The notes under the pieces are model-generated. The model was not told where the DNA came from. It saw only the letters and a list, made by a program, of their open reading frames with translations, and did not search any database. Of a DNA stretch of 61,656 bases, positions 1,935-59,459 are shown in pieces (the first letter of the stretch is position 1; the number at the start of each line of letters is the position of its first letter). Location: the NCBI GenBank assembly GCA_043806975.1, contig JAZDGL010000069.1, forward strand, positions 1-61,656. Reading direction: 5' to 3'. The position numbers and the translations under genes are program-made. The stretch comes from a bacterium (GTDB taxonomy: Bacteria > Patescibacteriota > Minisyncoccia > CAYZDR01).

Positions 1935-1976
1935 CAGGCAATAGCAGACGGAGTTGTTGATAGCGGTTTTTTAATT

Positions 1977-2066
1977 ATAGCTCCCGCAAAACAAATTCCA
2001 ATATTTTCTCCCCGCGAAAAGGGAGATTGAGAGGGATTCTAAAATAAATTTGTTTTGCGACAGCTA
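1977..2066 (+). repeat. family-1 TIR/hairpin repeat, 1 module
   Basis: Sequence is TATAGCTCCCGCAAAACAAATTCC...TCTCCCcgcgaaaaGGGAGATTGAGAGGG...AAATTTGTTTTGCGACAGCTA. The termini are inverted repeats of each other. Confidence 0.9.
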
Positions 2067-4038: not shown

Positions 4039-4149
4039 TAGTTTAGCTTTTCAAACTTTTATCCACAACCTCATTAGCAAAAATTAAAAGTATCTAGTAT
4101 AATTAAAAAGCAGAGTATGGCGGATTATTTTTTGAAGTGATAAAAAACG

Positions 4150-4189
4150 GAATTTGCTTTGCGACAGTTATATTTTGCAAGAAGCTATA
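4150..4189 (+). repeat. two tandem solo 3'-TIR remnants of family 1
   Basis: GAATTTGCTTTGCGACAGTTA is followed by TTTTGCAAGAAGCTATA. The first matches the 3' TIR at 2046-2066 in 18 of 21 positions. Confidence 0.6.
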
Positions 4190-6885: not shown

Positions 6886-6888
6886 AAA

Positions 6889-7009
6889 TATAGCTATCGC
6901 AAAACAGATTCCGATATTTTCTCCCTTTGAAAAGGGAGATTGCCGTCCAAGACGGTCTGCCTTGGGCAGGAGAGGGATTTTAGAATAAATTTATTTTGCG
7001 GGAGACATA
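6889..7009 (+). repeat. family-1 TIR/hairpin repeat with extra GCCGTCCAAGACGG/CTGCCTTGGGCAG module
   Basis: 121 nt, about 10 mismatches to the copy at 14546-14666. It occupies essentially the whole scpA-scpB intergenic gap. Confidence 0.9.
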
Positions 7010-7012
7010 ATT

Positions 7013-7507
7013 ATGTATTCTCAAATTGAAACAATTTTGTTTATAGCAGGGAAACCCGTGGCGATTAAAAAGATTGCTGGAATTTTAGTTTGCGAAGAGG
7101 AAAAGGCGCGGGAGGAAATTAAAAATTTGCAGCAGGAGTATAAAAAGCAGAATAAAGGGTTCAGAATTCTTTTTGACAATTGCGAGGCGGAGCTCGTGAG
7201 CAGTCCGGAAAACGAAGAAATTGCTTCCAAATTTTTTAAAAGTGAAATTCAAGAAGATTTATCTAGGGCGGCGCTGGAAACTTTGGCGGTAGTTGCTTAT
7301 AAATGTCCGATTAGCAGGCTGGAAATTGAGGAAATAAGAGGGGTAAATTGTCAATATACTTTAAGGAGCTTATTAATGAGAGGGCTTATCAATAAATTTG
7401 TAAAAACTGGCATAACTTATTATCAAATAACTTTGGAGCTATGCAAGAAGTTTGGGATTGAAAAAGCAGAAGATTTAATAGAAAATGTAAAATGGAGTAT
7501 TTCTTAG
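7013..7507 (+). CDS. scpB: segregation and condensation protein B
   Basis: IETILFIAGKPVAIKKIAGIL and a winged-helix region LETLAVVAYKCPISRLEIEEIRGV. Confidence 0.85.
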   Translation: MYSQIETILFIAGKPVAIKKIAGILVCEEEKAREEIKNLQQEYKKQNKGFRILFDNCEAELVSSPENEEIASKFFKSEIQEDLSRAALETLAVVAYKCPISRLEIEEIRGVNCQYTLRSLLMRGLINKFVKTGITYYQITLELCKKFGIEKAEDLIENVKWSIS

Positions 7508-14498: not shown

Positions 14499-14545
14499 TT
14501 ATTTTTCCTCCTGACATTTTAAGAACTTTGAAATGCTATATTCGT

Positions 14546-14666
14546 TATAGATCCCGCAAAACAAATTCCGATATTTTCTCCCTTTGAAAAGGGAGATTGC
14601 CGTCCAAGACGGTTTGCCTTGGGCAGGAGAGGGATTCTAAAATAAATTTGTTTTGCGGGAGCTATA
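14546..14666 (+). repeat. family-1 TIR/hairpin repeat with extra module
   Basis: Near-identical to the copy at 6889-7009. Termini are TATAGATCCCGCAAAACAAATT / AATTTGTTTTGCGGGAGCTATA. Confidence 0.9.
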
Positions 14667-14868
14667 TTTACAATTCAATTATTTTAATTTTATTAAATTT
14701 AGATTAGAATGGTGTTAATTTTTTAAGGATTTTATAATGCGGCGCGGTTCAGTAGTTTTTCTAGACAATTGGGAAAAAATCGGATAAGATAGGGTAGCGG
14801 TTTAGAAATTTGTAATTATTAAAATATGGGGGTTGCGTGTTTGCGCGGCTTCTTTTAAATTAAAAACA

Positions 14869-21749: not shown

Positions 21750-21861
21750 TATAGCTTTTGCAAAACAAGTTTTCGGATTTTCTCTCTTTTTACCTCCCAA
21801 GGCGGTCTGCCTCAGGCGGAAGAGGGATTTTAAAATAAATTTGTTGCGTGGAAGCTGTATA
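21750..21861 (+). repeat. family-1 repeat, divergent copy
   Basis: TATAGCTTTTGCAAAACAAGTT...CCTCCCAAGGCGGTCTGCCTCAGGCGGAAGAGGGATTTTAAAATAAATTTGTTGCGTGGAAGCTGTATA. Confidence 0.75.
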
Positions 21862-24257: not shown

Positions 24258-24290
24258 AAGCTATAACTTCCGCAAAACAAATTCCGATAT
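24258..24290 (+). repeat. family-1 5' half element
   Basis: AAGCTATAACTTCCGCAAAACAAATTCCGATAT stops exactly where the family-2 element begins. Confidence 0.7.
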
Positions 24291-24442
24291 GGACTTACGC
24301 GTTTGGTGCATTTCTTCGTCAAATACTGCGGTGCTTGCTCGCCGTACCTTTAAGTACGCCTTCCCCTCCTTTCGGAGGAGGGGTTAGGGGAGGTGCGGGA
24401 TCCTCGCATTTTCCTTGAACTGCGCTCAAATGCGCAAGCCCT
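24291..24442 (+). repeat. family-2 GC-rich structured repeat, copy 1
   Basis: About 152 nt. By hand alignment it differs from the copy at 50977-51129 by 9 substitutions and one 1-nt indel. It has imperfect TIRs and a central CCCCTCCTTTCGGAGGAGGGG hairpin. Confidence 0.85.
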
Positions 24443-24465
24443 AATATCATAATTTAAAACTGTTT

Positions 24466-26436
24466 ATGAATAACATTACTTATTTTGCTAAAACAAATTT
24501 TAGAAATCAAGAGAAAACTTTTGGAATAAAGCCTGACGATCGCCGCCGCCATGTGTATTTGATTGGAAAGACTGGTATGGGAAAAACTGAATGTATGAAA
24601 AATATGGTGATTCAGGATATCCAAAACGGGCATGGTGTAGCAATTCTTGATCCGCATGGAGACGCGGCGGAGGATCTTTTAAATTTTGTTCCGCCTTCAA
24701 GAATAAATGATGTTGTTTATTTTAATCCTGCTGACGAAGAAAACCCAATCGCGTTTAATATCTTGGAATCTGTTGATGGAAGGGACAAAAAATATTTGAT
24801 TGCGTCGGGGCTAATGGGAGTTTTTAAAAAGCTTTGGCCTGATGTTTGGAGCGCCCGAATGGAATATTTACTTAATAACACGATTCTTGCTCTTTTAGAG
24901 TATCCTAGCAGCACAATGCTGGGGATAAATAGAATGTTTTCCGATAAAGAATTTAGGAAAAAAGTTGTGGATAGGGTGACTGATCCGCTGGTTAAGTCGT
25001 TTTGGGTGAATGAATTCGCGAAATATACCGATCGGCTTGCGACAGAGGCGACTTCGGCGGTGCAAAACAAGGTAGGACAATTTTTGTCTTCTGCGATTAT
25101 CCGCAACATTATTGGACAGCCAAAATCAACGATTAGTATGCGGGATATTATGAATAATCAGAAAATTTTGATAGTAAATCTTTCCAAGGGTAAAATCGGC
25201 GAAGACAATATGAAGCTTTTGGGGGGAATGATTGTGACAAAATTACAGCTGGCGGCGATGGAAAGGGTGAATATTCCCGAAGAAGACAGAAAAGATTTTT
25301 ATCTTTATGTTGATGAGTTGCAGAATTTTGTAAATGAATCTTTCGCGGGAATTCTCTCTGAGGCAAGAAAATATCGCCTTTCGCTTACTTTGGCACATCA
25401 GTATATTAAGCAGCTCCCAGAGGTTATTCGCGACGCTATATTTGGCAACGCGGGAACTTTAATAACTTTTCGCATAGGCGCGGAAGATGCGGAATTTTTG
25501 GAAAAAGAGTTTGAGCCTGCCGTGATGATGAATGATATTATCAATCTTCCGAAATATAATATTTATTTAAAATTGATGATTGATGGGATTACCAGCAATG
25601 CTTTTAGTGCCGTTTCGCTCCCCCCGATGAAACCGGCAGAGGCTAGCTCGGTTGATAAGGTGGTTAAGGTTTCAAGAGAGCGATATAGCAAGAAGAAAAT
25701 GGAAGTAGAAGAAAAAATTATTCGTTGGATAGGCGTGGATATAGGCGATAATAGTAAAGGAAATTTGGCGGGCAAAGAAAATGGGGGTTATTCAGGCAGC
25801 GGAGGAGGCGAAAATCCTCCCGAGATGTTTAAAGCAGAGTGCGCCCAGTGCGGAAAGCCGACTTTTGTTCCGTTTAAGCCCGATGAAAGGCGGCCTGTCT
25901 TTTGCGAAAAATGTTTGAAGAATTTAAGAAGCTCGGGCGCCACTTTTTCATACAAGAAAGCAGGAAATGGGCAGGAGCAAAATGGAGCGGTTCAAAATAA
26001 AGAAAATAGAGTTAGCGAGGCGCCGAATCTGCCTAAAAAAGAAAATTATTCGCAAAATAATAATAATCAAGAGAATAATAATTATCGCAAGCCCGGGTTA
26101 AACCAATATAACAATGATCTTTTAAGCGAGGCTCCCAAAAAAGAAGTTTCTATTAAAGATGCTTTACAAAAAGCTTTGGCAGGGGAAACGAGCAAACAAG
26201 TGGTTACAAAAAGTCGCCAAAAAGAGGTTGATGTGGCAGGAATAAGGGATTTAGTAAGCAATGTTTTGAATAAGCGAATGGGGAGCGGAGATGGCGGGGA
26301 AAATAAGAGCGATGAAAATGGCAAAGGTATTGCGGATGCGGGGGTAAATAATTTGTCAGGACAAAATTTAGAAAAACCTTCTTCCGCGCAAGCAGGGAAT
26401 GAGCTTAAACAAGGAGAAGAGGTAAGATTTTCTTAA
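24466..26436 (+). CDS. TraD/VirD4-like (type IV coupling protein family) P-loop ATPase with C-terminal CxxC-x17-CxxC zinc ribbon
   Basis: Walker A GKTGMGKT, Walker B FYLYVDELQNF, LTLAHQY. CAQCGKPTFVPFKPDERRPVFCEKC at about 25840-25914. Low-complexity N/Q/G-rich tail. Confidence 0.75.
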   Translation: MNNITYFAKTNFRNQEKTFGIKPDDRRRHVYLIGKTGMGKTECMKNMVIQDIQNGHGVAILDPHGDAAEDLLNFVPPSRINDVVYFNPADEENPIAFNILESVDGRDKKYLIASGLMGVFKKLWPDVWSARMEYLLNNTILALLEYPSSTMLGINRMFSDKEFRKKVVDRVTDPLVKSFWVNEFAKYTDRLATEATSAVQNKVGQFLSSAIIRNIIGQPKSTISMRDIMNNQKILIVNLSKGKIGEDNMKLLGGMIVTKLQLAAMERVNIPEEDRKDFYLYVDELQNFVNESFAGILSEARKYRLSLTLAHQYIKQLPEVIRDAIFGNAGTLITFRIGAEDAEFLEKEFEPAVMMNDIINLPKYNIYLKLMIDGITSNAFSAVSLPPMKPAEASSVDKVVKVSRERYSKKKMEVEEKIIRWIGVDIGDNSKGNLAGKENGGYSGSGGGENPPEMFKAECAQCGKPTFVPFKPDERRPVFCEKCLKNLRSSGATFSYKKAGNGQEQNGAVQNKENRVSEAPNLPKKENYSQNNNNQENNNYRKPGLNQYNNDLLSEAPKKEVSIKDALQKALAGETSKQVVTKSRQKEVDVAGIRDLVSNVLNKRMGSGDGGENKSDENGKGIADAGVNNLSGQNLEKPSSAQAGNELKQGEEVRFS

Positions 26437-27469: not shown

Positions 27470-27694
27470 GCTGTTTTGCGATAGCTATAGCTGCCGCAAA
27501 ACAAATTCCAATATTTTCTCCTTTTGGTTCTCCTTCGCCCTATGGGCTTCGCGGGATGCAGCAAGGGAGATTAAGAGGGATTCCAATATTTTCTCCTCGC
27601 AATAAGGGAGACTGAGAGGGATTCCAATATTTCCTCCCTTAATAAGGGGGGATGAAGGGGGTTTTTAAAATAAATTTGTTTTGCGGAAGCTATA
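27470..27694 (+). repeat. family-1 cluster: solo 3' TIR plus full element with 3 tandem modules
   Basis: GCTGTTTTGCGATAGCTA overlaps the start of the full element, TATAGCTGCCGCAAAACAAATTCC. Three units of ATTCCAATATTT(T/C)CTCC-loop-GG(G)GA..AGAGGG follow, and it ends TTTGTTTTGCGGAAGCTATA. Confidence 0.9.
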
Positions 27695-27715
27695 ATTTAT
27701 TTGCAAATAAGTTTA

Positions 27716-30570: not shown

Positions 30571-30610
30571 GAAGAGGAATTTGTAAATAATTTTTTTTGC
30601 GGGATCTATA
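30571..30610 (+). repeat. family-1 3' half element
   Basis: GAAGAGGAATTTGTAAATAATTTTTTTTGCGGGATCTATA aligns to GAGAGGGATTCTAAAATAAATTTGTTTTGCGGGAGCTATA. Confidence 0.65.
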
Positions 30611-35076: not shown

Positions 35077-37093
35077 AGCAGGCAAAAATAAAATTATTTT
35101 CGGCTCAGATTTGGCAGATGGGATAGAAAAAGCGGTTAGCGAAGCAGCAAGTTTTTTAGAGAAAAACCAGCTGGACGATGGGAGTTTTTTAAGTTTTTCT
35201 TCGGAAGATCTTGGTGATTTTTCAAAGGTTAAAGAGTATCATTCAATTTTTTCTTCAAGTTTAATTTTATCAAGTTTGGCGGCTGTAAAAACGCGTGGAT
35301 TTGCGAAAAAAAAGATTATCGGGCGGGTAAAAAAGGGAATTGCTAATTTTTTACTTTCTCAAAAAAGTGATTGCTGGTCTTTTAATTATTGGAAAAGGGA
35401 TTCGGAAGAATCAGGGGGGATGCCTTATCCCGATGATTTAGATGATACATTTTGCGCTTTATCGGCGCTTTTTTTGTGCAAATCTAGTATTTTTGGCGGA
35501 GATGTTTTAGCTAAAATTGTCGCGCTTCTTGCTTCGACGGAGAAAAAAGAAGGCGGTCCGTATCAGACATGGTTAGTTTGTGGTAACGCTGATCCTGTGT
35601 GGAAAGATGTTGATTTGGCTGTAAATAGCAATGTTGCTTATTTTCTTTCTTTGCAGGAAGTAGAATTGCCTAATTTGGAAAATTTTGTTGAAAAAGCGAT
35701 AATGGTAGATAAGTTAATTTCGCCGTATTATCCAAATTTTTATCCGCTGGTATATTTTATTTCTAGATTTTATAAGGGGAGGCTAAAAAATAGGCTTATT
35801 GATTTTATACTTTTAAATCGGAAAAATGGAATTTGGGAAAATTCTCTTTATACTTCTTTGGCTATTTCGGCGCTTTTGAATTTAGGATATTCTTTTGGCA
35901 AACTTAAAGAGGCGGTTGAATATTTATTAAGCTGCCAGCAAAACGGGGGATGGGGAGCTTGCGCTTTTTGCCTTGATCCTGCTATTGGCGGGAAGGTTTT
36001 TTATTGCGGTTCAGATGCTTTGACAACGGCTTTTTGTGTGGAAGCGCTGGAAAAATATAAAGAAAAAATAAATTTAGAAAAAAAACAGGCAGGGGCGTTT
36101 GTAGGCGAAATTTTAAATCGAAAACTTGAAGAGCAGCTGAAAATTCAAAGTTTAATTATTGAAAAATATCGGGAAAAATTTTCTTATTTAGGCGAAGATT
36201 TAAACAAGCAATCTGAAATAGCGCTTAAAAAAATTTTGAAAATTGATGAACGGGATCGTCAAATAACTTTGTTGCCCTATCTTTTTAAAAAGTCTTTAAA
36301 GCGCGGCAATGAGATTTCTAGCGATTTGGCAATTCAGCTTGGTTTCGCTAATTTGCTAGGGTGGACTGCTTATACAATTTATGATGATTTTCTTGATTTA
36401 GAGGGCGATTCTAAAATGCTTTCTGTGGCGAATGTTGCGTTAAGAGAGCTTGCTTTGATTTTTGGCAGTTTAGATATAAGCGGGGTTAAAGATTTTTTTA
36501 CGAAAATTATGGATAAAATAGATTCTGCGAACGGACAGGAAGTTTCTAAATGCAAACTGGAAAATTTTGTTTTTTCTGAAAGGGAAAATGTATTTGGCGA
36601 TTATTCAATTTTGGCTGAAAAATCACTGGGTCATTGTTTGGGGTGTGTTGCTATTCTTCTAAAATTAGGGTTCAAAGAAAATTCTTCTGAGATAAAAAAA
36701 CTTATGGATTTTTTTAGCCATTTTTTGATTGCTCGCCAGCTTCATGATGATGCGCATGATTGGGAAGATGATTTAAGGCGAGGTTATGTGAATTCGGCAA
36801 GTGCTTTAACTTTAAATGAAGCTGGTAAGGCGCGAGGTAAAAAAGAAAATCAGAAAAAAATTGATTTAAAGAAAGATTTAAAACATTTGCAAGAAATTTT
36901 TTGGGAAAATACGATTATTCAAATTTGTAAATTGGTTTTAGCGCACCTAAAAGAAGCGGAGATTTGTTTAAGCGAGCTTACCTGTCTTGAAGATATTTCA
37001 ATATTTAAGGATTTTTTGGCAAATTTGAAAAATTCTGCTAAAAAAACATTGCGCCAGCAGAAGGATGTAAAAAATTTTTTGAATAATTTTTAA
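35060..37093 (+). CDS. two-domain terpene-synthase-like protein (class II cyclase-like N-domain plus squalene/phytoene-synthase-like C-domain)
   Basis: DDLDDT (DxDDT) at 35432-35449. QW-like repeats (FLEKNQLDDGSF, AVEYLLSCQQNGGWG). DDFLD at 36383-36397. HDDAHDWEDDLRRGY at 36743-36787. The GTG start overlaps the HK stop by 17 nt. Confidence 0.6.
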   Translation: MRKKNKAGKNKIIFGSDLADGIEKAVSEAASFLEKNQLDDGSFLSFSSEDLGDFSKVKEYHSIFSSSLILSSLAAVKTRGFAKKKIIGRVKKGIANFLLSQKSDCWSFNYWKRDSEESGGMPYPDDLDDTFCALSALFLCKSSIFGGDVLAKIVALLASTEKKEGGPYQTWLVCGNADPVWKDVDLAVNSNVAYFLSLQEVELPNLENFVEKAIMVDKLISPYYPNFYPLVYFISRFYKGRLKNRLIDFILLNRKNGIWENSLYTSLAISALLNLGYSFGKLKEAVEYLLSCQQNGGWGACAFCLDPAIGGKVFYCGSDALTTAFCVEALEKYKEKINLEKKQAGAFVGEILNRKLEEQLKIQSLIIEKYREKFSYLGEDLNKQSEIALKKILKIDERDRQITLLPYLFKKSLKRGNEISSDLAIQLGFANLLGWTAYTIYDDFLDLEGDSKMLSVANVALRELALIFGSLDISGVKDFFTKIMDKIDSANGQEVSKCKLENFVFSERENVFGDYSILAEKSLGHCLGCVAILLKLGFKENSSEIKKLMDFFSHFLIARQLHDDAHDWEDDLRRGYVNSASALTLNEAGKARGKKENQKKIDLKKDLKHLQEIFWENTIIQICKLVLAHLKEAEICLSELTCLEDISIFKDFLANLKNSAKKTLRQQKDVKNFLNNF

Positions 37094-37110
37094 AAATAGT
37101 ATTGGTAGGG

Positions 37111-37141
37111 GCGGGAGATGTTTTTGCATCCCCGCTTTTTT
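37111..37141 (+). terminator. rho-independent terminator
   Basis: GCGGGAGATG-tttttg-CATCCCCGC (9 bp, 1 bulge) followed by TTTTTT. Confidence 0.75.
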
Positions 37142-37170
37142 ATGTTTAGAAAACTAGCGCAAATAAAAAT

Positions 37171-37199
37171 TTGTCGGAAATGCAAATGTTTGATAGTAT
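37171..37199 (+). promoter_or_regulatory. sigma-70-type promoter placing the TSS at or next to the alaS ATG
   Basis: TTGTCG, 17-nt spacer, TAGTAT. Only 6 nt (ATTAGT) separate the -10 box from the ATG at 37206, and there is no SD. Confidence 0.5.
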
Positions 37200-37205
37200 A
37201 TTAGT

Positions 37206-39278
37206 ATGATAACGGCGAAAGAGCTTAGACAAAAATATATTGATTTTTTTAAGGAAAAAGGGCATAAAGCAATCCCCTCGGCTTCTTTAATCCCAGAAAA
37301 TGATCCAACTGTGCTTTTTACAACAGCTGGAATGCACCCGCTGGTTCCTTATTTATTGGGACAGCCGCATCCAGAGGGCAAGCGAATTGTTGACGCGCAA
37401 AAATGCGTTCGCACAGGGGACATTGAAGATGTTGGGGATAACCGTCATCTTACTTTTTTTGAAATGCTGGGGAACTGGTCGTTTGGGGATTATTTTAAAG
37501 AAGATGCGATCCAGTGGAGTTGGGAATTTTTAACTGGAAAAAAATGGCTGGGGCTTGACCCAAAAAGACTGTATATCACTGTCTTTAAAGGCGATGGTGA
37601 AATTCCCCGCGATGATGAGGTAGTTAAAATTTGGCAGGATCAGTTTAAAAAGTTTGGAATTTTTGCTGGCGTTGCTAATGATAATGCAGTTTGGGGGAGT
37701 GAGGATGTGAGGATTTTTGTTTTGCCAAAAAAGGATAATTTTTGGGAAATGGGAGGCGAGAATGGTCCGTGCGGACCTTGCACGGAAATTTTTTATGATG
37801 TTTTTCCTGAAAAGGGCTGGGAGAACAAAAATTTCGATGAGCTTACCTGCGAGTTTAGGTTTATAGAAATTTGGAATAATGTTTTTATGTTGTATAATAA
37901 AGCTGGCGCAGGAACATATGAGCCGCTTTTGCAAAAAAATGTTGATACGGGAATGGGTGTTGAGAGGACGGTTGCAATTTTAAATGGAGCAAAAAATGTT
38001 TTTGAAACGGAATTATTCGCGCCGATTATTAAGAGAATTAAGGGGATGGAAAATCCCCCTCAATCCCCCTTTGCAAAGGGGGAAAACGAAGGAGATTCTT
38101 TCCTAACCTCTTCTTTATCAAGGGAGAGAGAGGAAGAAAATCTCCCTGCCTCTTTTGCAAAGGGGGAAACGGAACACCCCCTCCAACTCCCCCTCCGGGA
38201 GGGGGAGAGAAAGAAGGAATGCCTCCTTCCTGAAGAGGAGAGAAGGAAGGGAGAAGTGGAAAAGTCTGAGCGAATTATCGCTGATCATATTAAAGCGGCA
38301 GTAATGATTTTGGCGGACGATAAAAAAATAGTTCCATCTAATGTTGAACGGGGGTATGTTTTGCGACGGCTGATCCGCCGCGCTGTTAGATATGGGAAAA
38401 TTTTGGGGATTGAAGGAAATTTTATGGCGCAAATCGCGGAGGCGGTTGTGGATATGTATAAAGAAACATATCTAGAAGTTGGAAAAAATAAGGACTTTAT
38501 TTTTAGAGAGCTGGAAAAAGAGGAGGATAAATTTGGGAAAACTTTGGGTAGGGGGCTTATAATGCTTGAAAAAACTGTGAAAGAATTAGATAAAAATACA
38601 ATGGCCGCGTTTAAAAAACATGGAGAAAAAGTTTATGAACCGAAAATTTCGGGAAAAATTGTGTTTGATTTGTATCAAACTTATGGTTTTCCACCTGAAT
38701 TAACGGAGGAGGAGCTGGCTGAATATACTTGGACATATGATAAAGAAGAATTTCAACAAGAGCTTAAAAAACATCAAGATCTTTCTCGCACCGCTTCTGC
38801 TGGAATGTTTAAATCAGGGCTTGCGGATAACTCAGAAGCTACAACGAAACTTCACACAGCTACTCATCTTCTTCAAGCGGCTTTGAGAGAAATTTTAGGA
38901 GTAAAAGTTGAGCAAAGAGGAAGTAATATCACCCCTGAAAGATTGCGTTTTGATTTTTCTCATTTTGAAAAAATGTCTTCTTCACAAATTAAGCAAGCTG
39001 AAAATTGGGTTAATGATAAAATTCAAAAAAATCTTGCTGTTATTTGTGAGGAAATGTCTCCAGAAAAAGCAAAAGAAAGCGGCGCGCTGGGGCTTTTTGA
39101 CGCAAAATACGGCAATCTAGTGACAGTTTTTACAATAAAAGATGGAGAAAAAATAATTTCTCGTGAAATTTGCAAAGGTCCGCATATAGAGGAAACGGGG
39201 GTTCTTGGAAAATTTAAAATTGTGAAAGAAGAAGCATCTTCGCAAGGAGTAAGAAGAATTAAAGCAGTTTTGGAATAA
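37206..39278 (+). CDS. alaS: alanine--tRNA ligase (short form) carrying an in-frame repeat insertion
   Basis: ELRQKYIDFFKEKGHKAIPSASLIP, FTTAGMHPLVPY, VDTGMGVERT, RGYVLRRLIRRA, editing-domain HxxxH (HTATHLLQ). About 73 extra codons lie between IIKRIKG and ERIIADH. Confidence 0.92.
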   Translation: MITAKELRQKYIDFFKEKGHKAIPSASLIPENDPTVLFTTAGMHPLVPYLLGQPHPEGKRIVDAQKCVRTGDIEDVGDNRHLTFFEMLGNWSFGDYFKEDAIQWSWEFLTGKKWLGLDPKRLYITVFKGDGEIPRDDEVVKIWQDQFKKFGIFAGVANDNAVWGSEDVRIFVLPKKDNFWEMGGENGPCGPCTEIFYDVFPEKGWENKNFDELTCEFRFIEIWNNVFMLYNKAGAGTYEPLLQKNVDTGMGVERTVAILNGAKNVFETELFAPIIKRIKGMENPPQSPFAKGENEGDSFLTSSLSREREEENLPASFAKGETEHPLQLPLREGERKKECLLPEEERRKGEVEKSERIIADHIKAAVMILADDKKIVPSNVERGYVLRRLIRRAVRYGKILGIEGNFMAQIAEAVVDMYKETYLEVGKNKDFIFRELEKEEDKFGKTLGRGLIMLEKTVKELDKNTMAAFKKHGEKVYEPKISGKIVFDLYQTYGFPPELTEEELAEYTWTYDKEEFQQELKKHQDLSRTASAGMFKSGLADNSEATTKLHTATHLLQAALREILGVKVEQRGSNITPERLRFDFSHFEKMSSSQIKQAENWVNDKIQKNLAVICEEMSPEKAKESGALGLFDAKYGNLVTVFTIKDGEKIISREICKGPHIEETGVLGKFKIVKEEASSQGVRRIKAVLE
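38046..38264 (+). repeat. GC-rich hairpin array inserted in frame inside alaS
   Basis: CCCCCTTTGCAAAGGGGG (38065-38082), GGAGATTCTTTCC...GGAAGAAAATCTCC, CTCCCCCTCCGGGAGGGGGAG (38187-38207), CCTTCCT...AGGAAGG. 219 nt = 73 codons with no stop. Confidence 0.8.
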
Positions 39279-39358
39279 GAAAATCATTTAATCGGGGAAA
39301 CAAGAATTTAAAAAAATTGGCAAGCGGCTGTAAAAAATAATTAAAACAAAAAAACAAA

Positions 39359-40564
39359 ATGTTTTGGAGGACAAAGAGGGGGGCAAATTGTCTTGCGGTG
39401 GATTTGGGAACGGAGTATATTAAAGCTCTTGTTTTTTCTGTTGACGAAGAAAAAATTGACATAAAATCAAAATTTAAAGTTAAGCGCGAGGTGAAAAATT
39501 TGGGAGCAAATGAAATTATTAAAATTTTGAAAGACTTAATTTATCGGGCAGAGAAAAAAAGTTCTGCAAAAATTTCTTCTTTAACAATTGGATTTTCTGG
39601 AAATTTTTTAAAAGGAAATATCACTGCTTATTCTTATTGCCGTCCTAACCCGCAGGATGAGATTATTATTTCTGAAATTGAAAATATAATTCAAAAGTCG
39701 CAGTGGAAAGCTTTGGATATTTTGAGAAAAGATTTTTTTTCTAGCGCTGATTTTGATTTTTTAAAGATAGTGGATGCGCAAGTATTGCGGATTATTTTGG
39801 ATAAAAAAGATGTTGAAAGTCCGATAGGCGGACAGGGGGAAAATTTAGTTTTGGAAATTGCGAATTCCGCGACTTCCAAAGAAAATTATGATATAATTAA
39901 AAAAGTAGCAAGCGATTTAAAAATTGAATCAAAAATAGTTTCTTTGCCTTGCGCGGTTGCAAATCTTATTAAGACCGAGGGAAGTATGGAAACAGATGCT
40001 TTAATTATTGATGCTGGTTCTAGCGCTACCGTTGTTTCGGTTTTAAAAAATGGTTTAATTTGTTTTTCGGAGTCATTTCCGCTGGGCGGCGAGGCTTTTT
40101 CTAAAAAGATTTCTGAAATTTTTTCTATTCCTGCAAGCAGCGCGGAAAAAATTAAAATAAAATATGCGGGTGGAAATTTAAGCGGCGGAGTAAACTTTAA
40201 GCTCAGGAGTATTCTAAAAGAAGATGCAAGAATTTGGTCTAAGGCGATAAAAATTGCGCTGGAAAAGTTCTTAAAATTTCAAATTTTTCATCCATCCGCA
40301 ATTTATTTGCTGGGCGGCGCATCGCAGCTTCCAGAAGTTAAAGAGGCTGTCCAAATAATGGCAGGAGACTTTAAAAATCGTTATGTTCCTGTTGTGGCTT
40401 TGTCGGGAGAGATTTTTTATAGTAAAATTAAAAATAGCGGAGAGGTTCAATTAGGAGTTGACGATGTGGCTTGTTTTGGGCTTGCAAGCCTTGCCTTAAA
40501 TAAACATAATGGATTTATTGAACAAACTCTCAAAAGAGCTAATAGAATTATCCAAGAAGGATAA
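39359..40564 (+). CDS. actin-like ATPase of the FtsA/PilM family
   Basis: LAVDLGTEYIKALVF (phosphate 1), LIIDAGSSATVVSV, GGEAFSKKISE, IYLLGGASQLPEV. Confidence 0.65.
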   Translation: MFWRTKRGANCLAVDLGTEYIKALVFSVDEEKIDIKSKFKVKREVKNLGANEIIKILKDLIYRAEKKSSAKISSLTIGFSGNFLKGNITAYSYCRPNPQDEIIISEIENIIQKSQWKALDILRKDFFSSADFDFLKIVDAQVLRIILDKKDVESPIGGQGENLVLEIANSATSKENYDIIKKVASDLKIESKIVSLPCAVANLIKTEGSMETDALIIDAGSSATVVSVLKNGLICFSESFPLGGEAFSKKISEIFSIPASSAEKIKIKYAGGNLSGGVNFKLRSILKEDARIWSKAIKIALEKFLKFQIFHPSAIYLLGGASQLPEVKEAVQIMAGDFKNRYVPVVALSGEIFYSKIKNSGEVQLGVDDVACFGLASLALNKHNGFIEQTLKRANRIIQEG

Positions 40565-50976: not shown

Positions 50977-51129
50977 AGGAATTACGCGTTTGGCGCATTT
51001 CTTCGTCAAATACTGCGGTGTTTGCTCGCCGTACCATTAAGTACGCCTTTCCCCTCCTTTCGGAGGAGGGGTTAGGGGAGGTGCGGGCTCCTCGCATTTT
51101 CCTTGAACTGCACTCAAACGCGTAAGTCC
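50977..51129 (+). repeat. family-2 GC-rich structured repeat, copy 2
   Basis: AGGAATTACGCGTTTG...CAAACGCGTAAGTCCT terminal inverted repeat, with central CGTAC-CATTAA-GTACG and CCCCTCCTTTCGGAGGAGGGG hairpins. Confidence 0.85.
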
Positions 51130-51165
51130 TAAAATATAGGAATTAAATAAAATAAGGAGAAAAAT

Positions 51166-55797: not shown

Positions 55798-55806
55798 GGG
55801 CGTGTT

Positions 55807-55981
55807 TATAGCTCCCGCAAAACAAATTCCGATGTTTTCTCCCTTAGTAAGGGGGAATTGAAAGGGGTTCTAAAATTTTCTCCCTTTGAAAAGGGAGATT
55901 GAGAGGGATTCCGATATTTTCTCCCTTTTTGAAGGGAGACTAAGAGGGATTTTAAAATAAATTTGTTTTGCGGGAACTATA
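55807..55981 (+). repeat. family-1 repeat with 3 tandem modules between mreB and mreC
   Basis: TATAGCTCCCGCAAAACAAATTCC, then three TTTTCTCCC-loop-GGG(G)GA units, ending AAATTTGTTTTGCGGGAACTATA. The last A is the A of the mreC ATG. Confidence 0.9.
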
Positions 55982-56769
55982 TGTTATTTAAACCAAAAAA
56001 ACCAATTTTAAAATATATATCAATTGCGTTTCTTTCTGTGGGAATAATTTGGATTTTGCTTGTAAACTCTTCCGCTGGAAGCTGGGTTTTTAAAATTTCG
56101 CATCCATTTATTGAAACAGGCAGCGATGTTTTTTTATTTGTAAAATCTTTTTTAAAAATAAATCAAATTAGTCAAGATAATATCAGGCTTGGCAAAGAGA
56201 ATTTAACTCTTCTTTCAGAGAATATCAGGCTAAAAGAAGTAGAGCTAGAAAATGTTGCGTTAAGAAAGCAGCTTAGTCTTCCCGCGTTGGGGAACAAACG
56301 GTCGGTAAGAGCGAATATCTCTGGCTTTGATCCGTTTGAGTCTGCAAACTATTTGACGATTGATAAAGGCGCGAAAGACGGAATAAAAAATAATTTGCCC
56401 GTTTTGTCGCAAGAAGGCTTTTTGGTGGGGAGAATAGAAGAAACTAATCAAAATTATTCTAAAATTATCACTATTTTTTCTCCAAAAAGCTCAATTGCCG
56501 TGATAGACCAAGAGACAAGAAGCGCAGGGGTTTTAAAAGGAAATTTTGGAACTTCTCTCGCGCTGGATTTGGTTCCTCAATACGAAGATTTGAAACAAGG
56601 CGATATCCTTATCACATCTTCTATGGGAGGAATTTTTCCAAAAGGAATAGTCGTTGGAAAAGTAGGCGAGGTGGCTTCAAATTCTAATGATATTTTTAAA
56701 AAAGCCGAGGCAAGCTCTTTTTTGGATTTGCGCAAGCTTGAAGTCGCGGTCGTTATTTTAGAAGAATAA
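55981..56769 (+). CDS. mreC: rod shape-determining protein MreC
   Basis: N-terminal TM segment, coiled coil (ENLTLLSENIRLKEVELENVALRKQL), a C-terminal beta-barrel region (GDILITSSMGGIFPKGIVVGKV). The ATG at 55981 is preferred because the upstream part of the ORF lies inside the repeat. Confidence 0.85.
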   Translation: MLFKPKKPILKYISIAFLSVGIIWILLVNSSAGSWVFKISHPFIETGSDVFLFVKSFLKINQISQDNIRLGKENLTLLSENIRLKEVELENVALRKQLSLPALGNKRSVRANISGFDPFESANYLTIDKGAKDGIKNNLPVLSQEGFLVGRIEETNQNYSKIITIFSPKSSIAVIDQETRSAGVLKGNFGTSLALDLVPQYEDLKQGDILITSSMGGIFPKGIVVGKVGEVASNSNDIFKKAEASSFLDLRKLEVAVVILEE

Positions 56770-59238: not shown

Positions 59239-59459
59239 ATATAGCTTTTGTAAAATAATTATATGGTAACTATTTCAATATCACAAAAAAAATTTCAAAA
59301 AATGAAAAAACTTTATGATAGATTTTATGAGATATATGGGGACAATGAAACCGTTTGGGATTTAAGCGATTTAGATAATATGCGCGAGATGGGGCAGGAA
59401 TTTATGGATATTTTCGCTGTTAATTTTAAAGAATAAATAAATTAGTTTTGCGAGAGCTA
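59239..59459 (+). repeat. family-1-like TIR pair enclosing a small ORF instead of hairpin modules
   Basis: The left end TATAGCTTTTGTAAAATAA resembles the divergent copy at 21750. The right end AAATAAATTAGTTTTGCGAGAGCTA matches the 3' TIR consensus. Confidence 0.5.
59263..59436 (+). CDS. 57-aa acidic small protein, absent from the ORF track
   Basis: MVTISISQKKFQKMKKLYDRFYEIYGDNETVWDLSDLDNMREMGQEFMDIFAVNFKE. It lies downstream of the 59197 promoter. There is no clear SD. Confidence 0.3.
   Translation: MVTISISQKKFQKMKKLYDRFYEIYGDNETVWDLSDLDNMREMGQEFMDIFAVNFKE

What the first reader, a model, noticed from the sequence alone, without database searches (positions are those of the whole stretch)
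38046..38264. In-frame 219-nt hairpin-repeat insertion inside the essential alaS gene
**Position and size**
- Between the conserved blocks ...FAPIIKRIKG and ERIIADHIKAAV..., E. coli AlaRS has only about 10 residues by my recollection.
- This gene has about 73 extra codons there: MENPPQSPFAKGENEGDSFLTSSLSREREEENLPASFAKGETEHPLQLPLREGERKKECLLPEEERRKGEVEK.

**DNA features**
- The DNA is a string of GC-rich CT/GA-arm hairpins: CCCCCTTTGCAAAGGGGG, CTCCCCCTCCGGGAGGGGGAG and CCTTCCT...AGGAAGG.
- These have the same style as the family-1 and family-2 modules.
- The segment is open in both orientations, which is typical of palindromic DNA.

This parallels Rickettsia palindromic elements, which insert in frame into protein genes and become surface loops.
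Basis: partly seen in the sequence, partly recalled or inferred. Interest (0 to 1): 0.75.

Follow-up and report, generated by a model that had tools for sequence, protein, structure and literature searches.

The report
Hairpin-repeat array translated inside alaS
An essential enzyme gene (alanyl-tRNA synthetase) of an uncultured Patescibacteria/CPR-type bacterium carries, in frame, about five copies of a small hairpin repeat that otherwise lies between genes; related bacteria have filled the same protein loop with different hairpin repeats many times, much like the "selfish DNA in genes" known from Rickettsia.

Summary
alaS (37206-39278, +) has an in-frame, stop-free, GC-rich, hairpin-dense segment at 38046-38264. 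It falls where E. coli AlaRS has about 10 residues. The nearest insert-free ortholog is 65 codons shorter there.

It is repeat DNA, not an old protein domain. A profile built only from the window's intergenic 36-nt hairpin modules hits alaS 38052-38086 full length in reverse orientation (E 7e-8), the only coding hit. The segment parses into about five tandem 39-45-nt modules and has no terminal inverted repeats.

Of the four closest orthologs, three lack a module and one has a single module at the same codon position. Among 120 Patescibacteria-type AlaRS, 24 have 31 or more residues at this loop (baseline 21-28), in about 8-10 separate lineages, and the DNA read is always hairpins, from at least three unrelated families. 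Two genes 90-93% identical in their flanks carry unalignable inserts.

AlphaFold2 models residues 284-341 as an unstructured excursion between two confident helices.

Best reading: a Rickettsia-palindromic-element-like selfish hairpin module, amplified in place inside a permissive inter-domain loop that acts as a recurrent hot spot. This is a new variant of a known kind. Translation and any function are untested.

The parts
37206..39278 (+). alaS ORF. It encodes a 690-aa Patescibacteria-type alanyl-tRNA synthetase with catalytic, tRNA-recognition and editing domains.
   Evidence: 100% to an NCBI MAG protein; Pfam PF01411 and PF07973; model matches E. coli AlaRS 3HXU, TM 0.79 normalised to the target.
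38046..38264 (+). The net gain over the empty-site ortholog L082 is 65 codons (195 nt). It encodes an acidic (net charge -6), E/P/S/K/R/G-rich peptide.
38046..38090 (-). Module 1 (45 nt), the best-preserved copy. The core 38052-38086 is a full-length reverse-orientation copy of the intergenic 36-nt module. It contains the perfect hairpin 38064-38083.
   Evidence: nhmmer profile of six intergenic modules: E 7.1e-8, 28.5 bits, model positions 1-35 of 36. blastn-short: 35 nt, 88.6% identity to 55876-55910..
38091..38132 (-). Module 2 (42 nt). It is degenerate, with an imperfect CCTCTTC...GGGAGAG hairpin.
   Evidence: Alignment with the other modules. Only a weak profile hit, E 0.15.
38133..38171 (-). 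Module 3 (39 nt), a near-duplicate of module 1 (GAAAATCTCCCTGCCTCTTTTGCAAAGGGGGAAAC).
   Evidence: Direct repeats D3 (26 nt, 85%) and D7, at 84-87-nt spacing..
38172..38212 (-). Module 4 (41 nt). It holds the perfect 9-bp hairpin CTCCCCCTC-cgg-GAGGGGGAG at 38187-38207.
38213..38257 (-). Module 5 (about 45 nt). It is degenerate (CCTCCTTCC...GGAAGG).
   Evidence: (D1).
38047..38053 (+). Left copy of a 7-nt direct repeat, TGGAAAA, that brackets the insert. The right copy is at 38257-38263, 210 nt away. It may be a target-site duplication or simply the module's own 5' end.
   Evidence: Not resolved.
38257..38263 (+). Right copy of the TGGAAAA direct repeat.
55806..55982 (+). Intergenic element of the same family. 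Terminal inverted repeats TATAGCTCCCGCAAAACAAATT / AAATTTGTTTTGCGGGAACTATA enclose three tandem 41-nt hairpin modules.
27486..27695 (+). Intergenic element of the same family (inverted-repeat-bounded, two to three modules), just upstream of tRNA-Pro.
1975..2066 (+). Intergenic element of the same family (inverted-repeat-bounded, one module), just downstream of tRNA-Ala.
6888..7010 (+). Intergenic element of the same family (inverted-repeat-bounded, one module plus a different hairpin cargo).
14545..14667 (+). Intergenic element of the same family, 91% identical to 6889-7013.

Best explanation
**What it is.** The segment is a tandem array of about five copies of a small hairpin repeat module of about 36-45 nt. 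Each module has a box AAATCCCYCTCAA followed by a C/T-rich arm, a short loop and a G/A-rich arm. The module is mostly free of stop codons.

**Where else the module occurs.** In this genome the same module sits in intergenic regions. There it occurs singly or in arrays of up to three, usually enclosed by 24-nt terminal inverted repeats.

**How it most likely arose.**
1. One module entered alaS in the DNA that codes the loop joining the last helix of the catalytic domain to the first helix of the tRNA-recognition domain (inferred).
2. It landed in an orientation and length that keep the reading frame open (shown by the sequence).
3. It then multiplied in place by slippage or unequal recombination between modules (inferred).

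**Why it persists.** The result is read through by the ribosome as a 65-73-residue acidic, low-complexity, probably disordered surface excursion that AlaRS tolerates. The enzyme needs no function from it. It is selfish or neutral DNA filtered by protein tolerance, as described for Rickettsia palindromic elements. Because this loop is one of the few permissive places in an essential gene, it accumulates such insertions repeatedly and turns them over quickly.

**Shown:** homology to the intergenic modules, empty and one-module orthologs, recurrence, turnover, and the low-confidence loop in the model.

**Inferred:** the insertion and amplification mechanism, translation of the insert, and its neutrality.
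For: 1. **Homology to intergenic repeats.** A profile built only from six intergenic modules hits alaS 38086..38052 over its full length (E 7.1e-8). This is the only coding hit in 61.6 kb. The five-module parse aligns with reverse-complemented intergenic modules.
2. **Empty and one-module orthologs.** The syntenic ortholog L082 and also L209 have no module. The syntenic ortholog L081 has one module (AAAATCCCCTCAAGCCCTTTTTTTGAAGGGGAAAGAT, +10 codons) at the same position and in the same frame. The window minus L081 is 165 nt, about 4 x 41.
3. **Recurrence.** 24 of 120 Patescibacteria-type AlaRS have 31 or more residues at this loop, against 21-28 in the other 96. They fall in about 8-10 separate lineages whose nearest neighbours (about 72-84% identity) are at baseline length.
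4. **Hairpins in every lineage read.** The DNA of six such lineages is always hairpins. They belong to at least three unrelated families: the CCCTCC...GGAGGG type, GTCATCCCGGA...GCGGGAACGAC, and GTCATCTCGAC...CTCGGAATGAC.
5. **Same module in distant lineages.** The window's intergenic-module profile also hits the alaS inserts of L087 (E 1.2e-5) and L083 (E 4.9e-5). Orientation and reading frame match the window (ENPSQPPFTKGGEE against ENPPQSPFAKGENE).
6. **Turnover.** The alaS genes of L087 and L088 are 90-93% identical in DNA on both sides, yet their inserts do not align.
7. **Tolerance.** In the AlphaFold2 model (mean pLDDT 84.7, pTM 0.77) residues 284-341 have pLDDT below 50 and are coil, lying between helices 272-281 and 343-370. 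The loop also varies in length across other phyla: 47-94 residues between the DTGMG and ADH motifs.
8. **The module type is common and enters other genes.** At least 120 metagenome contigs match it. Most copies are intergenic, but it is in frame inside a 3-hydroxyacyl-CoA dehydrogenase (three sites) and a RibD.
9. **Precedent.** In-frame palindromic elements in Rickettsia are documented (PMC10969869, PMC3184786).
Against: - Only module 1 is individually significant against the intergenic profile. Modules 2-5 are recognised by architecture and by similarity to module 1, with weak profile scores (E 0.15-1.6).
- The insert has no terminal inverted repeats, and no clear target-site duplication has been established, so the insertion mechanism is unknown.
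- Recurrence of the same module in the same orientation and frame in AlaRS only about 58% identical could instead mean one ancient insertion with many losses.
- Hairpin arms stay perfectly complementary while differing between copies. This could indicate selection on structure, and so a function, rather than pure neutrality.
- No read-level or protein-level data exist for this exact sequence. Its 90% cluster has one member on one contig, and it is not on record in the contig index.
- Surface exposure is inferred from low model confidence, not measured.
Confidence: 0.8

Rival explanations
1. The hairpin array is kept because it acts in cis on the mRNA. It might slow ribosomes at the boundary between the catalytic and tRNA-recognition domains to aid co-translational folding, or it might modulate alaS mRNA stability or expression. 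The peptide would be a by-product. This reading can coexist with a selfish origin.
For: - The insert sits exactly at a domain boundary.
- It is the most strongly folding stretch of the gene in the window, L084, L087 and L088.
- Hairpin arms differ between copies but remain perfectly complementary.
- The same loop is occupied in many lineages.
Against: - 96 of 120 relatives, including three of the four closest orthologs, manage without any insert.
- Copy number, family and sequence change freely, even between genes 90-93% identical.
- Modules 2 and 5 are decaying.
- Perfect palindromes are equally explained by recent insertion from distinct subfamilies.
Confidence: 0.1
2. It is an old, lineage-specific functional insertion peptide of AlaRS, an idiosyncratic synthetase insertion domain inherited vertically. 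Its palindromic DNA and its resemblance to the intergenic repeats would be secondary, with the repeats perhaps derived from it.
For: - Same site, orientation and reading frame in the window and in AlaRS about 58% identical.
- Aminoacyl-tRNA synthetases are known to acquire lineage-specific insertions (general knowledge).
Against: - Patchy distribution, with baseline-length nearest neighbours.
- No conserved peptide, and a search with the 73-aa peptide found nothing.
- At least three unrelated hairpin families occupy the site.
- Inserts do not align between genes with 90-93% identical flanks.
- Predicted disordered.
- The module is abundant in intergenic DNA of many unrelated metagenomic contigs.
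Confidence: 0.05
3. It is an assembly artefact: a chimeric join or a mis-estimated copy number of a dispersed repeat placed inside alaS.
For: - The exact protein is known from a single contig only, and the contig index did not return it.
- Repeats are classic sources of misassembly.
Against: - Both flanks are contiguous alaS, and the segment keeps the frame with no stop.
- No intergenic copy is identical to it. The best match is 35 nt at 88.6%, so reads could not have been bridged through a shared repeat.
- The five modules differ from each other by 15% or more.
- An independent metagenome (L081) has a module at the same codon position.
- Eight independently assembled alaS genes carry hairpin inserts at this site.
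Confidence: 0.03
4. The segment is not translated. It would be an intervening sequence removed from the RNA, or skipped by programmed translational bypassing, as with the GC-rich 'byp' elements of a yeast mitochondrion or phage T4 gene 60.
For: Hairpin-rich GC-rich islands within an AT-rich coding sequence resemble bypass elements (analogy from general knowledge only).
Against: - The segment is a multiple of three and stop-free here and in every relative examined.
- No known RNA family matches. All Rfam hits are far below their gathering scores.
- At 219 nt it is shorter than typical group I or group II introns (general knowledge; not tested beyond the Rfam scans).
Confidence: 0.02

Closest known systems
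Rickettsia palindromic elements (RPE; Ogata et al. 2000 and 2002, as summarised in PMC10969869 and PMC3184786)
   Same: - Both are dispersed palindromic repeats with an open reading frame.
- Both are found between genes and, in frame, inside unrelated housekeeping genes.
- Both are read through as extra peptide at positions compatible with the protein fold.
- Both occur in small-genome bacteria: obligate intracellular Rickettsia, and a Patescibacteria-type genome here.
   Different: - RPEs are about 105-150 bp single units (PMC3184786, PMC10969869); I know them only from Rickettsia. Here the unit is 36-45 nt, GC-rich in an AT-rich genome, and forms tandem arrays of one to five units.
- No sequence relationship to RPEs was tested.
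- Here one loop of one gene has been colonised repeatedly, by several unrelated hairpin families, in many lineages, with fast turnover. I do not know of an equivalent report for RPEs.
REP / BIME elements (repetitive extragenic palindromes and their clusters) of Proteobacteria
   Same: - Both are short (20-40 nt) GC-rich imperfect palindromes.
- Both are often clustered in tandem.
- Both are mostly extragenic and have many subfamilies.
   Different: - The GTAG/CGTC terminal tags that define the two large REP superfamilies (PMC3733652) are absent from the insert and from the intergenic modules.
- An associated REP transposase was not looked for.
- REPs are by definition extragenic, whereas this array is translated.
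MITEs with in-frame fusions (ERIC, BOX, RUP, Nezha and Anabaena MITEs; reviewed in PMC3184786 and PMC10969869)
   Same: - The window's intergenic elements have 24-nt terminal inverted repeats around a structured core, as MITEs do.
- MITE open reading frames are known to fuse with host genes.
   Different: - The alaS insert carries only the internal modules. No terminal inverted repeat lies within about 7.4 kb of it (the nearest is at 30589).
- No target-site duplication has been established.
- The modules behave as an expandable tandem array rather than a unit transposon.

Membership tests
Rickettsia palindromic elements (RPE) | Repeat that can fold as a hairpin (palindromic). | tested here: met
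   Perfect 8- and 9-bp stems at 38064-38083 and 38187-38207. DNA fold z-score -2.85.
Rickettsia palindromic elements (RPE) | Inserted in frame in a protein-coding gene, without a stop codon, extending the product. | tested here: met
   690-aa uninterrupted ORF. The flanks align to AlaRS on both sides of the insert.
Rickettsia palindromic elements (RPE) | Homologous copies dispersed elsewhere in the genome, including intergenic regions. | tested here: met
   The intergenic-module profile hits alaS at E 7.1e-8. There are 8-9 intergenic loci in the window.
Rickettsia palindromic elements (RPE) | Unit of about 100-150 bp belonging to one of the RPE sequence families of Rickettsia. | tested here: not met
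   The unit is 36-45 nt. The host is a Patescibacteria-type genome. Sequence comparison with RPE consensus sequences was not possible with the tools at hand.
Rickettsia palindromic elements (RPE) | Insertion lies at a position compatible with the protein's fold and function (surface). | tested here: inconclusive
   AlphaFold2 gives residues 284-341 pLDDT below 50, coil, between two confident helices. The loop is length-variable across phyla. Solvent exposure and distance to the tRNA were not measured.
MITE | Terminal inverted repeats flanking the element. | tested here: not met
   No copy of the 18-nt inverted-repeat core (up to 3 mismatches) in or near alaS. The nearest are at 30589 and 55811. 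The intergenic relatives do have them.
MITE | Target-site duplication. | tested here: inconclusive
   A 7-nt direct repeat TGGAAAA brackets the insert (38047 and 38257). It may simply be the module's own start.
REP / BIME | GTAG or CGTC tetranucleotide tag at one end of the palindrome (PMC3733652). | tested here: not met
   GTAG, CTAC, CGTC and GACG are all absent from the insert and from the six intergenic modules.
REP / BIME | Associated REP transposase (RAYT) in the genome. | not tested
   The window's ORFs were not scanned for Y1 transposases, and the rest of the genome is not available.
TIGR arrays (guide-RNA arrays reported from Patescibacteria/CPR and phages, PMC12045711) | 36-nt units with conserved edge and loop repeats (box C/D) around two variable spacers, next to a Nop-domain Tas gene. 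| tested here: not met
   The period is 41 nt. The arms are conserved and self-complementary rather than variable spacers. There is no TGATGA box. A Tas gene was not searched for.
Known structured RNA families, including self-splicing introns and riboswitches (Rfam 15) | Match to a curated covariance model at or above its gathering score. | tested here: not met
   No hit at the gathering threshold. In the permissive scan the best hits are 14-23 bits against thresholds of 36-105.

The most novel reading that the evidence does not exclude
A widespread family of mostly stop-free 31-45-nt hairpin modules is an active generator of protein-loop insertions across Patescibacteria and other phyla, not a one-off. 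Under this reading the inter-domain loop of AlaRS is a genuine insertion hot spot. It would be colonised independently many times, by several hairpin families, and remodelled faster than about 8% flanking nucleotide divergence. Possible drivers are a structure- or sequence-targeted insertion mechanism, or selection for an mRNA or protein property at the domain boundary. [quoted passage not shown] It would also provide a natural series of empty, one-module and multi-module alleles of an essential enzyme.
Probability: 0.4. Interest if true: 0.72.

Novelty: new variant of a known kind. Interest (0 to 1): 0.58.

Why it matters
**Extends a known phenomenon.** In-frame colonisation of housekeeping genes by palindromic repeats is textbook for Rickettsia but has been regarded as nearly unique to it. 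A 2024 review (PMC10969869) still calls similar protein evolution in other prokaryotes only 'conceivable'.

**What this locus shows.**
- The same behaviour occurs in an uncultured Patescibacteria-type genome, with a much smaller, array-forming module.
- One loop of an essential synthetase has been hit again and again by different hairpin families.
- The loop therefore gives a natural map of a permissive site in AlaRS.
- It offers a test bed for how selfish DNA becomes protein sequence, through the series of empty, one-module and five-module orthologs.

**Practical warning.** Hairpin-derived peptides such as PPFAKGG and PSPSKGEG inside conserved proteins are repeat DNA, not domains.

Tried and rejected
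**Searches that led nowhere**
- Contig look-up of the window's own AlaRS: not on record. No sample or read information could be obtained.
It served only to show that the loop varies in length across phyla.
- Module profile against L001-L082: no hit at E <= 0.01. The L081 module is too degenerate to score alone (E 0.14-0.75), so its homology rests on position, orientation and frame.
- Self-BLAST of the inserts of L083-L086 against their own flanks: essentially no extra copies in 6-22 kb. The link between in-gene and intergenic copies is therefore demonstrated only in the window.
- Search with the 73-aa insert peptide against 5.8 billion proteins: nothing at E <= 10.
- Literature searches for the hairpin-derived peptides and for in-frame palindromes in Patescibacteria/CPR: nothing relevant.

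**Readings considered and rejected**
- Intein: no conserved splice-junction residues visible by inspection of the sequence, and at 73 aa it is too short.
- Intron or riboswitch: Rfam hits are far below threshold.
- TIGR guide-RNA array: wrong period, no box C/D, no variable spacers.
- Canonical REP: no GTAG/CGTC tags.
- The antisense ORF 38118-38432 (104 aa) as a gene: it is explained by the stop-poor composition of the palindromes.
- Most long ORFs containing the module in metagenome contigs: the module lies upstream of the true start, so they are not in-frame insertions.
Full report
**1. The observation**

The window is AT-rich (37% GC). Nearly all of its genes lie on the + strand.

ORF 37206-39278 encodes a 690-aa alanyl-tRNA synthetase. 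It is 100% identical over 690 aa to an NCBI protein named 'MAG: alanine--tRNA ligase [bacterium]'. Its best relatives are named Parcubacteria, Moranbacteria, Falkowbacteria and other Patescibacteria.

- GC is 0.48-0.51 in 200-nt windows, with a 60-nt peak of 0.65.
- It contains two perfect GC-rich hairpins, 38064-38083 and 38187-38207. These are two of only five in the whole window.
- It also holds several imperfect hairpins and internal direct repeats spaced 81-87 nt apart.
- As single-stranded DNA it folds better than 198 of 200 shuffles (z -2.85).
- In a 60-nt sliding fold it is the longest and strongest structured stretch inside any gene of the window.
- It is stop-free in the coding frame and in one antisense frame.

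Against solved structures, HMMER breaks the AlaRS match exactly here. Query residues 279 and 352 correspond to E. coli AlaRS 267 and 277, so E. coli has about ten residues at this point.

The one correction concerns size. Compared with the nearest insert-free ortholog the net gain is 65 codons rather than 73.

**2. What the DNA is**

The window carries a dispersed intergenic repeat family.
- 24-nt terminal inverted repeats (TATAGCTCCCGCAAAACAAATT... / ...AAATTTGTTTTGCGGGAGCTATA) enclose one to three tandem modules of 41-nt period.
- Each module is TTTTCTCCC-loop-GGGAGA followed by TTGAGAGGGATTC.

I built a profile from six intergenic modules, leaving alaS out, and searched the window.
- Apart from the intergenic copies, the only significant hit is alaS 38086..38052 on the minus strand. 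It is full length, at E 7.1e-8 and 28.5 bits, which is better than one of the training members.
- Read on the alaS sense strand, the insert parses into five consecutive units of 45, 42, 39, 41 and about 45 nt.
- All five share the architecture of the reverse-complemented intergenic module: an A-rich start, the box ATCCCYCTCAA, a C/T arm, a loop and a G/A arm.
- Units 1, 3 and 4 are well preserved. Units 2 and 5 are decayed.

The insert has no terminal inverted repeat. The nearest copies are at 30589 and 55811. A 7-nt direct repeat, TGGAAAA, brackets the insert 210 nt apart. It may be a target-site duplication or just the start of the module.

The second repeat family of the window (24291-24447 and 50978-51135) shows no detectable similarity to the insert.

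**3. Orthologs**

The four closest AlaRS are 69-71% identical over the whole alignment (72-73% over well-aligned columns outside the loop). Downstream synteny (ftsA-like gene, infA, rpsM, rpsK, rpsD, rpoA...) is shared by the relatives' contigs and matches the ORF sizes in the window. Their state at the site:

| Ortholog | State at the site |
|---|---|
| L082 (proteins P0002 and P0003) | Empty site: ...KIKSLAPKSDEKAERIIADH |
| L209 (P0004) | Seven extra residues, no hairpin module |
| L081 (P0005) | One module, AAAATCCCCTCAAGCCCTTTTTTTGAAGGGGAAAGAT, at the same codon position and in the same frame (+10 codons) |

The window exceeds L081 by 165 nt, about four 41-nt periods. So the window's insert is an expansion of a single-module state that is either older or recurrent. 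The clade as a whole does not share a conserved domain.

**4. The site is a hot spot**

In an alignment of the 120 best Patescibacteria-type AlaRS, the stretch from F271 to R356 (window numbering) has these lengths:
- 21-28 residues in 96 sequences;
- 31-86 residues in 24 sequences, with the window the longest.

On a neighbour-joining tree built without the loop, the long-loop sequences fall into about 8-10 separate lineages. The nearest neighbours of most are at baseline length (for example P0062/P0113 at 79%, P0050/P0024 at 84%, P0035/P0096 at 78%).

I fetched the DNA for six of these lineages. In every case the extra codons are hairpins:
- CCCTC/GAGGG-type modules in L083, L086, L087 and L088;
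- an unrelated GTCATCCCGGA...GGATTCCCGCCTTCGCGGGAACGAC element in L084;
- another unrelated element, GTCATCTCGAC...TCGACTTCGCTCGGAATGAC, in L085.

The window's intergenic-module profile also hits the alaS inserts of L087 (E 1.2e-5) and L083 (E 4.9e-5). Orientation and reading frame are the same as in the window: ENPSQPPFTKGGEE against ENPPQSPFAKGENE. These AlaRS are only about 58% identical to the window's.

L087 and L088 are 90-93% identical in DNA on both sides of the loop, yet their inserts do not align. The loop is therefore remodelled much faster than the gene diverges.

Hairpin arms differ between copies but stay perfectly complementary (TCCCCCTT/AAGGGGGA, CCTCCCTT/AAGGGAGG, TCTCCCTT/AAGGGAGA, CCCTCTCCTT/AAGGAGAGGG). 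This pattern fits either recent insertions from distinct subfamilies or selection on the structure.

**5. The protein**

- AlphaFold2 with the 120-sequence alignment gives a confident AlaRS model (mean pLDDT 84.7, pTM 0.77).
- The model matches E. coli AlaRS (3HXU) with a TM-score of 0.79 normalised to the target.
- Residues 284-341 have pLDDT below 50 and are coil. They lie between helices 272-281 and 343-370.
- The peptide is 23% glutamate, has a net charge of -6, and is rich in P, S, K, R and G.
- In other phyla the same loop ranges from 47 to 94 residues between the DTGMG and ADH motifs.

All of this fits a tolerated, probably disordered excursion at the junction of the catalytic and tRNA-recognition domains.

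**6. Beyond alaS**

The contigs I checked for GC, those with long ORFs around the match, range from 47 to 69% GC. So this module type is common and not confined to Patescibacteria.
- Most copies lie in short ORFs or just upstream of genes.
- At least two are true in-frame insertions in recognisable enzymes. One is a 3-hydroxyacyl-CoA dehydrogenase with hairpin peptides at three separate sites (L110). The other is a RibD with the module in the opposite orientation (L136).
- Within the window itself alaS is the only gene hit.

**7. Mechanism**

Most likely (confidence about 0.8), one module of a dispersed hairpin repeat entered the loop-coding DNA of alaS in a stop-free orientation and frame. 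It was tolerated because the loop is permissive. It then multiplied in place by slippage or unequal exchange between modules, just as the intergenic arrays vary from one to three modules. The array is translated as a disordered acidic loop and needs no function. The hot-spot pattern follows from selection removing insertions everywhere else in an essential gene.

The following are shown:
- homology of module 1 to the intergenic modules;
- the empty, one-module and five-module series of orthologs;
- recurrence across lineages;
- turnover between closely related genes;
- the model's unstructured loop.

The following are inferred:
- the insertion and amplification mechanism;
- translation of the insert;
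- its neutrality.

Rivals:
- a cis-acting mRNA role at the domain boundary (about 0.1, and compatible with a selfish origin);
- an ancient functional insertion domain (about 0.05);
- misassembly (about 0.03);
- a non-translated intervening or bypassed sequence (about 0.02).

**8. Comparison with what is known**

The behaviour matches Rickettsia palindromic elements. These are dispersed palindromic repeats with open frames that sit in frame inside housekeeping genes at fold-compatible positions (PMC10969869, PMC3184786).

It is not a member of that family.
- The unit is 36-45 nt rather than about 105-150 bp.
- It forms arrays.
- It is GC-rich.
- The host is unrelated.

It also fails other membership tests.
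- It lacks the GTAG/CGTC tags of the main REP superfamilies (PMC3733652).
- It lacks the terminal inverted repeats of a MITE, although its intergenic relatives have them.
- It is not a TIGR guide-RNA array (PMC12045711).
- It matches no Rfam family.

I found no paper describing in-frame hairpin repeats in Patescibacteria proteins, or the characteristic peptides. The searchable library is incomplete.

**9. Verdict**

It is a new variant of a known kind. The new elements are the very small array-forming module, the host clade, and above all the repeated independent colonisation and rapid turnover of one loop of an essential synthetase by several hairpin families. Interest is moderate to fairly high (0.58). 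The mechanism is probably 'just' selfish DNA under a tolerance filter. The locus nevertheless offers a clean natural series for studying how such DNA becomes protein.

Noticed in passing
window 1975-2066, 6888-7010, 14545-14667, 21750-21860, 27486-27695, 55806-55982; lone half-sites near 4133-4170, 24262-24302, 30571-30608, 59422-59459: A MITE-like intergenic element family. 24-nt terminal inverted repeats (TATAGCTCCCGCAAAACAAATT) enclose variable cargo: one to three 41-nt hairpin modules, or other GC-rich hairpins such as TTGCCGTCCAAGACGGTCTGCCTTGGGCAGG. Several copies abut tRNA genes or gene starts. No Rfam match. The mobilising enzyme is unknown.
   Followed up: partly
window 24291-24447 and 50978-51135: Two 93%-identical copies of a 157-nt intergenic sequence that is the most strongly folding in the window (-36 kcal/mol per 60 nt). 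Each lies just upstream of a gene (starts at 24466 and 51166). The first copy is preceded by a left-end inverted repeat of the MITE-like family. A permissive Rfam scan of the first copy gave nothing credible; the whole-window gathering-threshold scan also gave no match at either copy. It could be an unrecognised leader or small RNA.
   Followed up: partly
L110:85-1824 (+) (metagenome contig ORJL010181769.1): A 3-hydroxyacyl-CoA dehydrogenase (Pfam 3HCDH_N and 3HCDH) from an organism with 53% GC carries hairpin-module peptides in frame at three separate sites: NPPQPPFAKGGDGTIPPLKKGGEGGFE; PPNPPLEKGGKSQVPPFAKGGKGGFE; IPPVPPFSKGGVREFPPFVKGGVREFPPFVKGGEGGF.
   Followed up: partly
L136:464-1669 (+) (metagenome contig CXWL01003622.1): A RibD (deaminase plus RibD_C domains) with one in-frame hairpin module in the orientation opposite to that in alaS (...LALTSPPFAKGGWEGFRQPL...).
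   Followed up: partly
L087:1066-3144 against L088:303-2393: Two alaS genes from different metagenomes are 90-93% identical in DNA on both sides of the loop. Their hairpin inserts are non-alignable and differ in length (the loop stretch F271-R356 is 62 against 47 residues). This is the clearest case of rapid turnover.
   Followed up: yes
Alignment A1 columns 119-128 (after the NWSLGD motif), 281-300, 540-600 and 640-665: Patescibacteria-type AlaRS have further lineage-specific insertions at other sites. One example is DPEKPDGIGAGY after NWSLGD in P0005, P0063, P0073, P0118 and P0083; there are also long variable stretches in the helical domain. I did not check whether any of these also derive from repeats.
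   Followed up: no
window 37766-37786: A perfect 7-bp hairpin, TCCGTGCGGACCTTGCACGGA, inside alaS. It is simply the coding sequence of the conserved GPCGPC motif. A similarly strong local fold is seen in L083 and L086 at a similar gene position (nt 564-600). It is a coding palindrome, not a repeat element.
   Followed up: partly
window 1-61656: 54 of the 56 ORFs of 70 or more codons are on the + strand, and G exceeds C on that strand across the region profiled (36500-40000). The AlaRS is about 610 aa without its insert, shorter than the 878-residue full-length AlaRS chain in PDB entry 9a7x. The shortfall probably corresponds to the C-terminal C-Ala domain, which I did not check.
   Followed up: no
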